Source of the DNA: Candidatus Hermodarchaeota archaeon
Lineage (GTDB): Archaea; Asgardarchaeota; Lokiarchaeia; Sigyniarchaeales; SOKP01
Assembly: GCA_048885525.1 (NCBI GenBank)
Contig: JBHLLP010000019.1
Span: forward strand, 3,930-60,049
Direction: 5' to 3'
Length of the DNA stretch: 56,120 nucleotides
Below the pieces are notes generated by a model, which saw only the letters and a program-made list of their open reading frames with translations, was not told the DNA's origin and did no database searches. A program made the position numbers and the translations under genes. Numbering within the stretch: position 1 is the stretch's first letter; each line of letters begins with the position of its first letter. Positions 27,972-33,122 of the stretch are shown here, one piece after another.

Positions 27972-29561
27972 TTATGTTTGATTTATAGTTTCTCCGTAGC
28001 CAATTAGCCGATAACGTCTATTTATTATTCTCGAAATAGCGTAGATAAAGTTTTCTGGAGGACATATTGGAGGATTTAGTTTGAGGATAACACTATTCTT
28101 CAATATTTTTATAACAGTTCCTCCTGTTTTTTCAGTACCTACAACTAATAATAATTTTTCATTATGTTTAAGTGAATATACTCTGAGCATTTGCTCAGAA
28201 CCAATCACTCTATCTAAAAGATTTATTTTTAGTTCTATTTCATCAAGAACATCGGGTAAAGTTCCAGGTTTTCCAACCAAATGGCCGATTAGGTGATCAC
28301 CCTTAGTTAAAGCAGGATCTAGTTTAGTTCCCAAACCTATGAGACCTCCAGGTTTTGCATTATCCAATAGATTATTTCCCTGACTAATACTTACAACAGT
28401 GGATTTTAGAGGAGTGTAATTATCTTTTATTCTTAAGCCAGGACGAATTTCAATTTGGTCACCAACATTAATTTTTCCTTTTAAAACAGATCCACCTATT
28501 ACACCTCCTTTAAGATCTTTGATTTCTTTTCCAGGACGATTAATATCAAAAGATCTTGCAATTAAAAATTGGAAATCTCCTTCACTAAATTCAGGAGATG
28601 GAATTATTTCTTCAAATGCTCTTAAAATTAGATCAATATTTGCTCCAAATACCGCTGAAACCGGTATAATTGGAGCTTTTTCTGCAATAGTCCCTTTAAT
28701 AAATTTTTTTATTTGTTGATGATTTTCCATAGCTTGCTCTCTTGAAACCGCATCAATTTTATTTTGTATTATGATAATATTTTCTATACCAGCAATATGC
28801 AATGCTTCTAAATGTTCTCTTGTTTGTGGTTGAGGACATATCTCATCTGCTGCGATTAATAAACATGCACCATCCATCAAAGATGCACCACTTAACATTG
28901 TAGCCATTAAGATTTCATGACCAGGAGCATCAACAAATGAAATATTTCTTCTAAATTCCAACAGTTCTTTACATTGTGGACATAAAAAGTGGGTTTCCCC
29001 TTTTTTTCTTGCTTTTTCAGCTAGGTAATATGTTAGATACTTATCACAATTTGGACAATACAGAATGGTGGCATTTGAATAACCTAGCTTTATTGAAATT
29101 CCTCTTTCTTGCTCTTCTGAGTGCCGATCTGTCCAATCTCCTGTTAGGGCTTTTACTAGGGTTGTCTGTATGTTTAATGAAGAATCCCTTCATAAAATTC
29201 CATGATCTACATGCCCTACAAGCCCTATATTGCATTCTGCTTGTTTCTTTATCAATTCTTTTAGTATATTAGCTTTCTCTTTTGATATTGGTTTTGCTTT
29301 AGGTTTTGATATCTGTTTTTCCTCTATTATTTCTTTCAGTTCATCAGAGGGTTGTTCTGTTATTTCATTTTCTTTTAACATTTTTATAGCATTTGTAATG
29401 TATTTTTCTGCGGTTGCTTTTCCGACACCCTTAATTTTTAGCTTCAATAAATCTTTTGGGCTAGCATTAGCAAGTTTTTCAACGGAATCAATATTAGCTG
29501 CCTTTAATCTTTCTGCTGTTGCTTTTCCAATTCCACTTACATCTTCCAATTTATATGACAT
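27972..29561 (-). CDS. eif2g: translation initiation factor aIF2 gamma with N-terminal HhH domain; two exons join(29561..29198, 29167..27972), 519 aa if spliced
   Basis: Exon 1 ends QAECNIGLVGHVDHG+A. Exon 2 reads AG ACA ACC CTA... giving KTTLVKALTGDWTDRHSEEQERGISIKLGY, a Zn knuckle, SFVDAPGHEILMATMLSGA, QNKID, RSFDINRPG, RLIGYG. The ORF track splits it into 29190-29561 and 27972-28961. Confidence 0.9.
29168..29197 (-). other. putative 30-nt BHB-type intron in aIF2-gamma mRNA
   Basis: TTTTATGAAGGGATTCTTCATTAAACATAC interrupts the AAG (Lys) codon of GHVDHGKTT, contains an in-frame TGA and an internal hairpin ATGAAG/CTTCAT; both junctions fall after nt 2 of 3-nt bulges. Confidence 0.8.
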
Positions 29562-32908: not shown

Positions 32909-33122
32909 TATAACCACATAAATTAGTAGCAGTTCGCTACGGCGCCGGAACCATCCGAACCCGGAAGTTAAACTTGTATTATGTTGTAGATAGTACTGTA
33001 GTTGCGAATTACAGACCATAACGGTCTGAAAGTAGAGTCTATGGGAAACTACAAACTGTAAGTTAGCTTACGGTCATGGTATACAAGGAAAATACCCGGT
33101 CACGCTTTTTTATGTGGTTATA
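32909..33122 (+). repeat. 14-bp perfect inverted repeat (processing stem) enclosing the permuted 5S gene
   Basis: TATAACCACATAAA (32909-32922) / TTTATGTGGTTATA (33109-33122); leader hairpin GTAGC-AGTTC-GCTAC at 32926-32940. Confidence 0.85.
32951..33101 (+). rRNA. rrf: 5S rRNA, circularly permuted gene (3' segment 32951-33064 precedes 5' segment ~33065-33101)
   Basis: Conserved CCATCCGAACCCGGAAGTTAA, loop-E AGTA/GGGAAA, helix I ACTGTAAG/CTTACGGT, helix II ATACAAG/CTTGTAT, helix III CCGG/CCGG, stems TTGTAG/CTACAA and CTGTAG/CTATGG. Confidence 0.92.

What the first reader, a model, noticed from the sequence alone, without database searches (positions are those of the whole stretch)
29168..29197. 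Probable BHB-type mRNA intron splitting the P-loop lysine codon of aIF2-gamma
Seen (minus strand): GTA GAT CAT GGA A|TTTTATGAAGGGATTCTTCATTAAACATAC|AG ACA ACC CTA. Only removal of exactly these 30 nt restores GHVDHGKTTL, giving a 1560-nt, 519-aa CDS; unspliced, an in-frame TGA truncates it at 123 aa. The fold fits BHB geometry: exon helix UC/GA, central helix AUGG/ACAU (3 Watson-Crick pairs + G.A), bulges AA^U and AC^A, and intron stem UUUAUGAAG/CUUCAUUAA. The flanking exons also pair (UAGGG/CCCUA, GGGCUU/AAGCCC). The cut sites predicted from structure coincide with the boundaries required by the protein. Established: EndA-spliced protein-coding introns in archaea are very rare, with crenarchaeal cbf5 the classic case; aIF2-gamma is a core initiation factor, so a dead gene is unlikely unless a second copy exists. 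Inference: aIF2-gamma expression depends on tRNA-type splicing, loosely analogous to non-spliceosomal HAC1/XBP1 splicing, and may be a regulatory switch.
Basis: partly seen in the sequence, partly recalled or inferred. Interest (0 to 1): 0.93.

Follow-up and report, generated by a model that had tools for sequence, protein, structure and literature searches.

The report
tRNA-type intron in Asgard aIF2-gamma
The only gene for translation initiation factor aIF2-gamma in this Loki-type Asgard archaeon is split by a 30-base insert shaped like a tRNA intron, so the factor can almost certainly be made only after the mRNA is cut and rejoined, something published for only one other archaeal protein gene (cbf5).

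Summary
Observation confirmed. On the minus strand, 29197..29168 is a 30-nt insert inside the P-loop Lys codon of the genome's only aIF2-gamma gene. Removing exactly these bases gives a 519-aa protein with GHVDHGKTTL.

It fits bulge-helix-bulge (BHB) geometry: exon AUGG pairs with intron ACAU, the bulges are AA|U and AC|A, and the intron forms a 9-bp hairpin. Cutting after the second bulge base gives the boundaries the protein needs.

Comparative evidence is strong.
- The same codon is interrupted in 31 of 400 Asgard genomes. That is 29 of 135 in this family and 2 in a distant family, where the intron sits 1 nt further on. Inserts are 29, 30 or 32 nt.
- Hairpin and central helix covary, including exon His CAU to CAC matched by intron A to G.
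- Both exons are under purifying selection (dN/dS 0.02-0.36).
- Close sister species have clean intron-less genes.
- Exon wobble bases that pair in the motif are constrained only in intron-bearing genes.
- The genome has two EndA paralogues and RtcB, 30-nt tRNA introns of the same format, and a covarying 30-nt intron in AMP phosphorylase.

The regulatory-switch idea is untested. This scan has reported similar Asgard mRNA introns on other DNA. None appeared in the papers I searched.

The parts
29198..29561 (-). Exon 1 of aIF2-gamma. It starts at the ATG at 29561, encodes an N-terminal helix-hairpin-helix domain and the first half of the P-loop (GHVDHG), and ends with the first base of the Lys codon.
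   Evidence: Pfam HHH_5 matches residues 5-53. dN/dS is 0.16-0.36 between intron-bearing species.
29168..29197 (-). The 30-nt BHB-type intron. It carries an in-frame TGA.
   Evidence: Same-site inserts of 29, 30 or 32 nt occur in 31 of 400 Asgard genomes. Covariation is shown.
27972..29167 (-). Exon 2 of aIF2-gamma. It holds the last two bases of the Lys codon, the rest of the G domain, domain II, the eIF2_C domain and the stop codon.
   Evidence: NCBIfam NF003077 scores 514.6 bits (cut-off 315) over profile positions 23-409 of 412. Pfam GTP_EFTU matches positions 43-188 of 188, plus eIF2_C. dN/dS is 0.02-0.15.
29200..29203 (-). Exon strand of the central 4-bp helix, AUGG. These are the last two bases of the His codon and the first two of the Gly codon.
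   Evidence: It pairs with 29170-29173. Across 27 variants 93.5% of cells are paired. One lineage has ACGG paired with CCGU, a change on both sides.
29197..29199 (-). 5' bulge AA|U. The predicted cut is between 29198 and 29197.
   Evidence: Read from the sequence. The first bulge base is only A or U in intron-bearing genes (Gly codon GGA 23, GGT 4), while intron-less genes use all four Gly codons.
29174..29196 (-). Intron hairpin (inner helix h'). The arms are 29196..29188 and 29182..29174, the loop is 29187..29183, and there is one U.U mismatch.
   Evidence: the hairpin core, 6 of its 9 positions, is part of the minimum-energy fold. Nine of 10 aligned pairs show changes on both sides.
29170..29173 (-). 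Intron strand of the central helix, ACAU.
29167..29169 (-). 3' bulge AC|A. The predicted cut is between 29168 and 29167.
   Evidence: Read from the sequence. The second bulge base varies freely among relatives: C, A, U or G.
29145..29166 (-). 3'-exon strand of the outer, exon-exon pairing: GA, CCCUA and AAGCCCUA.
   Evidence: The minimum-energy fold of 111 nt contains the two longer helices (CCCUA and AAGCCCUA); next to the 3' bulge it pairs UGU/ACA instead of UC/GA. Exon-exon duplex energy averages -15.9 kcal/mol in intron-bearing genes and -9.0 in intron-less ones. In sister pairs 7 of 10 go the same way, which is not significant.
29204..29227 (-). 5'-exon strand of the outer pairing: UAGGGCUU, UAGGG and UC.

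Best explanation
The 30 nt at 29197..29168 (minus strand) are a bulge-helix-bulge intron in the pre-mRNA of the only aIF2-gamma gene.

Proposed mechanism:
1. The transcript folds so that exon bases AUGG pair with intron bases ACAU. The rest of the intron forms a 9-bp hairpin, and the flanking exons pair with each other.
2. This leaves two 3-nt bulges on opposite strands.
3. The heteromeric splicing endonuclease EndA, encoded by two paralogues, cuts after the second base of each bulge.
4. RtcB joins the exons, creating the AAG Lys codon and an mRNA for a 519-aa protein with an intact P-loop.

Shown here:
- the geometry
- its conservation and covariation across 28 distinct sequence contexts from 31 genomes
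- selection on both exons
- presence of the enzyme genes.

Inferred: the cleavage and ligation themselves.

The intron is probably old in this family and has been lost precisely many times, most simply by recombination with a copy of the spliced message.
For: 1. Single copy. Only one aIF2-gamma gene and one eIF2_C domain are found in a genome that is 99.3% complete. The two relatives first checked also have one copy each, with the insert.

2. Same site in many genomes. The insert is in 6 of 54 genomes of the genus, 29 of 154 of the order (all in one family, in 8 of its 13 genera), and 31 of 400 of the phylum. The reversed-pattern control gave 0 hits. Three more intron-bearing metagenome contigs were found.

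3. Lengths of 29 nt (34 loci), 30 nt (12) and 32 nt (1) mean most inserts shift the frame, so they cannot be translated through.

4. Covariation.
- 82.4% of cells are paired, against 69.2% in shuffles (0 of 500 shuffles reach it) and 34-54% when partners are slid.
- Nine of 10 hairpin pairs change on both sides.
- The central helix is 93.5% paired, with U-A changed to C-G through a synonymous His CAU to CAC in the exon.
- The same compensation appears in the distant family (UGGC/GCCA versus CGGC/GCCG).

5. dN/dS is 0.02-0.15 for exon 2 and 0.16-0.36 for exon 1 (one low-divergence pair 0.75) between intron-bearing species. Intron-less pairs give the same values.

6. Exon wobble bases that lie in the motif are constrained only when the intron is present.
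- His CAT: 26 of 27 against 31 of 76 (Fisher p = 2e-7, not corrected for phylogeny).
- Lys AAG: 21 of 27 against 18 of 76.
- Gly: only GGA or GGT.
Sister pairs show the same pattern.

7. Very close sister species have clean intron-less genes that read GGN-AAR-ACN exactly at the predicted junction.

8. The machinery is present. There are two EndA paralogues, both above the TIGR00324 cut-off, and one lacks the catalytic His (my reading of the motif). RtcB is also present. Asgard EndA is described as the (alpha-beta)2 type with the L1 loop that gives broad specificity (PMC5829648).

9. The same format occurs elsewhere in this genome. tRNA-Ala has a 30-nt intron at a non-canonical site. AMP phosphorylase carries a 30-nt insert in its DKHSTGG motif. 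That insert is present in 36 of 135 family genomes and shows the same kind of exon-intron compensation.
Against: - No spliced RNA was seen. The metagenome scan found only intron-bearing DNA. The protein database holds no full-length product closer than 92% identity.
- In this genome the central helix has a G.A mismatch, and the outer helix next to the 3' bulge has only 2 bp. The motif is therefore of the relaxed kind.
- ACAU could also pair with a nearby AUGU in the exon.
- Single-sequence folding z-scores are weak.
- The L1 loop and the activity of this EndA were not tested.
- The codon-use and duplex-energy contrasts are not corrected for shared ancestry. The sister-pair test of exon-exon pairing was not significant.
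Confidence: 0.85

Rival explanations
1. The insert is removed from the RNA, but not by EndA and RtcB. Some other endonuclease and ligase, or an unknown small self-cleaving element, does the job, and the BHB-like fold is incidental.
For: The motif is relaxed in this genome, with a G.A in the central helix and a 2-bp outer helix. No cleavage assay or RNA data exist. Several variants have 4-nt or larger 5' bulges (L088, L130).
Against: The covarying elements are exactly those of a BHB: the 4-bp exon-intron helix and the adjacent hairpin. The cut rule 'after bulge base 2' gives the protein-required junction in independent intron types and in a second family with a 1-nt offset. tRNA introns of the same size and format occur in the same genome. 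Thirty nt is too small for any known ribozyme intron, and Rfam found nothing.
Confidence: 0.08
2. The gene is a pseudogene or the insert is an assembly artefact, and no functional aIF2-gamma comes from this locus.
For: Unspliced, the frame ends after 123 aa. Annotation pipelines call only exon 2 or a partial protein in such genomes.
Against: The insert appears in 31 independently assembled species genomes and 3 metagenome contigs. There is no second copy. Both exons are under strong purifying selection with no other defects. aIF2-gamma is a core initiation factor.
Confidence: 0.02
3. The ribosome deals with the insert during translation, by stop-codon read-through or by hopping as in phage T4 gene 60.
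For: The 30-nt length keeps the frame in this genome, and a hairpin follows the Gly codon.
Against: Most orthologous inserts are 29 nt and shift the frame. No AAG or AAA Lys codon exists in the unspliced sequence of this genome, since the codon is made only by joining A to AG. There is no matching landing codon. Read-through would put 10 foreign residues into the P-loop.
Confidence: 0.02

Closest known systems
cbf5 (pseudouridine synthase) pre-mRNA intron of Crenarchaeota (Watanabe 2002; Yoshinari 2006; Yokobori 2009, PMC2738675)
   Same: Both are short BHB-type introns in a protein-coding gene that often use a relaxed motif. Both interrupt the codon of an essential catalytic residue. Both occur in lineages with a hetero-oligomeric EndA. 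Both have a patchy distribution explained by secondary precise loss.
   Different: The host gene here is a translation initiation factor and the phylum is Asgard. The site is shared by 8 genera of one family plus a second family with a 1-nt offset. This genome carries further mRNA introns of the same format. Splicing has been shown experimentally for cbf5 but not here.
Non-canonical archaeal tRNA introns (Marck and Grosjean 2003; Asgard tRNA introns in PMC11291895 and bioRxiv 10.64898/2026.10.13.758758)
   Same: The architecture and size are the same: 1 nt, then a hairpin, then 4 nt that pair with the upstream exon, then 2 nt. tRNA-Ala and tRNA-Thr of this genome have 30-nt introns. The enzymes required are the same.
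   Different: The exon context is a coding sequence with no tRNA body to help recognition. Exon pairing has to be built from synonymous codon choices.
HAC1 / XBP1 unconventional mRNA splicing in eukaryotes
   Same: Both are spliceosome-independent. Endonuclease cuts in stem-loop structures are followed by a tRNA-type ligase (RtcB in metazoa).
   Different: That system uses a dedicated stress-activated nuclease (Ire1), and splicing is a regulated switch that changes the C-terminus. Here the general tRNA endonuclease is the likely enzyme, and nothing indicates regulation. The resemblance is in how it works, not in membership.

Membership tests
Archaeal BHB (EndA-dependent) intron | [quoted passage not shown] | tested here: met
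   In the window AUGG pairs with ACAU (3 Watson-Crick pairs plus G.A) with bulges AA|U and AC|A. Four standard pairs form in 20 of 27 variants and at least 3 in all. 93.5% of cells are paired.
Archaeal BHB (EndA-dependent) intron | Inner helix h' directly following the 5' bulge and directly preceding the intron strand of the central helix | tested here: met
   The stem has 9 positions with one U.U mismatch in the window. Nine of 10 aligned pairs change on both sides across relatives.
Archaeal BHB (EndA-dependent) intron | Outer helix h closing the 3' bulge | tested here: inconclusive
   Only 2 bp (UC/GA) lie next to the bulge. Longer exon-exon helices follow after an internal loop. Pairing is stronger in intron-bearing genes, but the sister-pair test gave 7 of 10, which is not significant. 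This is best described as a relaxed motif.
Archaeal BHB (EndA-dependent) intron | Cutting after the second base of each bulge yields the functional product | tested here: met
   It restores the AAG codon and GHVDHGKTTL. The same rule works in all intron types and in the offset family.
Archaeal BHB (EndA-dependent) intron | The host encodes a splicing endonuclease able to cut relaxed motifs, and an RNA ligase | tested here: met
   Two EndA paralogues and RtcB are present. The broad-specificity L1 loop was not examined here. It is reported for Asgard EndA in PMC5829648.
Archaeal BHB (EndA-dependent) intron | Spliced RNA, and usually a circular intron, observed | not testable with these tools
No spliced form was found in metagenome contigs or in the protein collection.
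aIF2-gamma (NCBIfam NF003077 / TIGR03680) | Full-length match above the curated cut-off, with an eIF2_C domain | tested here: met
   Exon 2 alone scores 514.6 bits (cut-off 315) over profile positions 23-409 of 412, and Pfam eIF2_C matches. The missing first 22 positions, which include the P-loop, lie at the end of exon 1.
Translational bypass (T4 gene 60 type) | Matching take-off and landing codons, and a product that does not need the skipped bases | tested here: not met
   There is no landing GGA next to a Lys codon. The Lys codon does not exist without joining the exons. Most orthologous inserts are 29 nt.
Self-splicing group I / group II intron | Catalytic RNA core of hundreds of nucleotides | tested here: not met
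   The insert is 30 nt. Rfam gave no match in the window at gathering thresholds.
HAC1/XBP1-type regulated splicing | A dedicated stress-activated nuclease and condition-dependent splicing | not tested
   No expression data were available. No Ire1-like gene was searched for.

The most novel reading that the evidence does not exclude
The P-loop intron may be an ancient, selectively kept gate rather than a passenger. It couples production of the initiator-tRNA carrier aIF2-gamma to the capacity of the tRNA-splicing machinery. In this genome that machinery also has to repair many tRNAs, probably the 5S rRNA, and several metabolic mRNAs.

Its presence at the same Lys codon in two distant Asgard families, offset by 1 nt, would then reflect one of two things: an intron older than those lineages, or repeated capture at a favoured site. 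Either would make Asgard archaea a prokaryotic lineage with a real population of mRNA introns.
Probability: 0.15. Interest if true: 0.88.

Novelty: new member of a known kind. Interest (0 to 1): 0.8.

Why it matters
Endonuclease-spliced introns in archaeal protein-coding genes are documented in the papers I could search for one gene only, cbf5 in Crenarchaeota. In Asgard archaea those papers report only tRNA introns.

[quoted passage not shown] The dependence holds in dozens of species, and the exon sequence shows selection to keep the splice motif.

Together with a second confirmed intron-bearing gene in the same genome, and similar reports from this scan, this suggests that mRNA splicing by the tRNA machinery is a regular feature of Asgard gene expression. 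That bears on three things:
- debates about intron origins
- genome annotation, since these genes are now called truncated, partial or pseudogenes
- marker-gene phylogenies that use aIF2-gamma.

Tried and rejected
- **Metagenome scan.** A pattern that allowed a 0-30 nt gap returned three contigs, all with the 30-nt insert and none spliced.
- **Protein search.** The best full-length relative has 92% identity. No product is close to any in-silico spliced protein. This is absence of data, not evidence against splicing.
- **Genome-wide structural scan plus ORF-fusion test.** It is not specific. There is no excess at 29-31 nt, and most hits are ordinary gene junctions.
  - Pfam shows that the TatD, LivH/LivM, GNAT and beta-lactamase-fold cases are separate genes.
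  - One hit is an in-frame TGA in an HdrA-like gene that reads as selenocysteine, not an intron.
  - The scan cannot be used to count mRNA introns.
- **Single-sequence folding.** The z-scores are weak.
- **Alternative partner for the intron strand.** The 81-nt fold pairs ACAU with an upstream AUGU. I rejected this as the conserved partner. Most relatives have CCAU or CUAU, which pair fully with AUGG but not with AUGU, and the compensatory ACGG/CCGU pair points to the same partner.
- **Exon-exon pairing.** It is clearly stronger across all intron-bearing genes but not significantly so in 10 sister pairs.
- **ARAGORN and Rfam.** Neither finds tRNAs or rRNAs in the window at default thresholds.

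Full report
**Observation.** The ATG at 29561 opens a frame that encodes 121 residues ending in GHVDHG. One further base, A at 29198, is followed by 30 nt (29197..29168) that contain an in-frame TGA, so the unspliced ORF ends after 123 aa. From 29167 the sequence continues with AG and then 397 codons starting TTLVKAL, up to the stop at 27972. Joining 29198 to 29167 makes an AAG codon and a 519-aa protein with GHVDHGKTTL. The last intron base here is C, so no other pair of boundaries gives Lys.

**The gene.**
- Exon 2 alone matches the NCBIfam aIF2-gamma equivalog at 514.6 bits (cut-off 315) over profile positions 23-409 of 412. It also carries Pfam GTP_EFTU (positions 43-188 of 188), domain 2 and eIF2_C.
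- The missing profile start, which includes the P-loop, is at the end of exon 1.
- Exon 1 also carries a helix-hairpin-helix domain. Intron-less relatives have the same domain in one ORF of about 515-525 aa.
- The genome is 99.3% complete in 87 contigs. It has no second aIF2-gamma and only one eIF2_C domain. The two weak hits are other GTPases.

**Geometry.** I use the canonical rule, which is established knowledge and follows from the position 37/38 tRNA case. Four exon bases pair with the four intron bases that precede the last two intron bases. Each bulge has 3 nt, and the cut falls after the second.

| Element | Window reading |
|---|---|
| Central helix | AUGG / ACAU (A-U, U-A, G-C, G.A) |
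| 5' bulge | AA\|U |
| Inner stem | intron bases 2-10 with 16-24, one U.U mismatch |
| 3' bulge | AC\|A |
| Outer helix | UC/GA, 2 bp, followed by longer exon-exon helices |

- The unconstrained fold of 111 nt contains the exon-exon helices, the central helix and the hairpin.
- Forcing the full motif costs 1.8 kcal/mol.
- Energies of the single sequence are not significant against shuffles.
- A loose version of the geometry fits 0.34% of genome positions at a fixed length, so a fit at the protein-defined boundaries is unlikely by chance.

**Distribution.** A pattern for the flanking codons with a 24-42-nt gap found the insert at these rates. The reversed pattern found nothing.

| Group searched | Genomes with the insert |
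|---|---|
| Genus | 6 of 54 |
| Order | 29 of 154, all in one family (29 of 135, in 8 of its 13 genera) |
| Phylum | 31 of 400 |

- Named relatives are MAGs labelled Promethearchaeota or Promethearchaeia, that is Loki-type Asgard archaea.
- Fifteen of those 80 named loci are interrupted, and three metagenome contigs as well.
- Lengths are 29 nt (34 loci), 30 nt (12) and 32 nt (1), so most inserts break the frame.
- There are at least three sequence types. All keep the pairing with AYGG and two free bases before exon 2.
- Two genomes of a distant family have a G+C-rich 29- or 30-nt insert in the same codon. There the best motif sits 1 nt further on, with UGGC/GCCA in one and CGGC/GCCG in the other. 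It gives the same protein junction.

**Covariation.** I aligned 27 distinct contexts (A1).
- 82.4% of cells form standard pairs. Shuffles give 69.2% (0 of 500 reach the observed value), and slid partners give 34-54%.
- Nine of 10 hairpin pairs change on both sides.
- The central helix is 93.5% paired. One lineage changes U-A to C-G through a synonymous His CAU to CAC in the exon and A to G in the intron.

**Selection on the exons.**
- Between intron-bearing species, dN/dS is 0.02-0.15 for exon 2. For exon 1 it is 0.16-0.36 in ten pairs; one low-divergence pair (L122/L123, dS 0.06) gives 0.75. Synonymous divergence (dS) is 0.16-4.3. Intron-less pairs give the same dN/dS values.
- Exon wobble bases inside the motif are constrained only when the intron is present. 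His is CAT in 26 of 27 intron-bearing contexts (the one CAC is compensated) against 31 of 76 intron-less ones. Lys is AAG in 21 of 27 against 18 of 76. Gly is only GGA or GGT.
- Close sister pairs show the same contrast.
- Exon-exon duplex energy averages -15.9 against -9.0 kcal/mol. Seven of 10 sister pairs agree, which is not significant.
- None of these contrasts is corrected for shared ancestry.

**History.** On a tree of exon-2 proteins rooted with a sister family, all early-branching lineages of the family carry the intron. Crown clades are patchy, with intron-less genes next to nearly identical intron-bearing ones. The intron-less genes read GGN-AAR-ACN exactly at the predicted junction. 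The simplest reading is one old intron with many precise losses, as proposed for cbf5 (PMC2738675). Repeated gains are not excluded, and the single-gene tree is weakly resolved.

**Machinery and context.**
- The genome has two EndA paralogues, both above the TIGR00324 cut-off, and RtcB. One paralogue keeps the Tyr, His and Lys motif positions and the other lacks the His. That is my reading of the sequences.
- Asgard EndA is reported as the (alpha-beta)2 type with the L1 loop that confers broad specificity (PMC5829648).
- ARAGORN finds only 34 tRNAs, 21 of them with introns. tRNA-Ala and tRNA-Thr have 30-nt introns, and the tRNA-Ala intron follows the same format.
- A 5S rRNA candidate 3.7 kb away has about 28 extra bases and falls below the Rfam threshold.
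- AMP phosphorylase is split in its DKHSTGG motif by a 30-nt insert with a perfect 9-bp stem. Pfam shows the a/b domain starting at profile position 11 in the second piece. The insert is present in 36 of 135 family genomes, again with His-codon and intron compensation.
- Mevalonate kinase has a 31-nt insert in its GKxxLFGEHxVVYG motif.
- Different genomes carry different subsets of these introns.

**Literature and earlier notes.** Six searches found mRNA BHB introns only for cbf5, and only tRNA introns for Asgard archaea. Notes from this scan report similar Asgard mRNA introns on other DNA, some with spliced RNA. I did not test those claims and they are not used as evidence.

**Missing evidence.** No RNA evidence could be obtained. 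The activity and substrate range of this EndA are untested, and so is any regulatory role.

**Verdict.** This is a new member of the cbf5 kind of intron, in a core translation factor of Asgard archaea.

Noticed in passing
window 32922-33064 (+): A 5S rRNA candidate scores 21.9 bits, below the Rfam gathering score of 38. It has 37 nt where the model expects 9, so it carries an insert of about 28 nt. It may be another small intron in a structural RNA.
   Followed up: partly
L148:1545-1574 (G000 C6:109044-109073, +): A 30-nt BHB-format insert splits the DKHSTGG motif of AMP phosphorylase. It is present in 36 of 135 family genomes. The exon His codon (CAU or CAC) and the intron base opposite it (A or G) change together.
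   Followed up: yes
L150:889-919 (G000 C10:11482-11512, -): A 31-nt insert splits the GKxxLFGE|HxVVYG motif of mevalonate kinase. It causes a frameshift, and its central helix is GGCG/CGCA.
   Followed up: partly
L153:451-453 (G000 C6:105146-105148, +): An HdrA-like FAD/Fe-S protein has an in-frame TGA in the motif FPTDDCSI-x-ILGP. It reads as selenocysteine. My intron scan picked it up as a false positive.
   Followed up: partly
window 29403-29549 (-), exon 1 residues 5-53: aIF2-gamma carries an N-terminal helix-hairpin-helix domain of about 100 aa (Pfam HHH_5). It is conserved across the order in ORFs of 490-600 aa. I know of no such domain in other archaeal aIF2-gamma proteins.
   Followed up: partly
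L158 and L159 (a distant family of the same phylum): The same Lys codon of aIF2-gamma is interrupted by G+C-rich inserts of 29 and 30 nt, with the motif shifted by 1 nt. In L158 the frame upstream of the P-loop is closed after only 10 codons, and the P-loop reads GDVDHG. That gene may hold a second interruption.
   Followed up: partly
G000 C14:34403-34506 (-) and C18:15840-15942 (+): tRNA-Ala(CGC) and tRNA-Thr(UGU) carry 30-nt introns. ARAGORN finds only 34 tRNAs genome-wide, 21 of them with introns, so many tRNA genes are probably hidden by non-canonical introns.
   Followed up: partly
L152:337-367 (G000 C7:62562-62592, +): A 31-nt hairpin insert lies at the end of a JAB/MPN domain that stops at profile position 97 of 117. 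It may be another mRNA intron. The downstream piece has no Pfam match.
   Followed up: partly
L013 (G024 C28:197948-199138): The aIF2-gamma match in this congener was reported with one internal TAA. I did not look at it.
   Followed up: no
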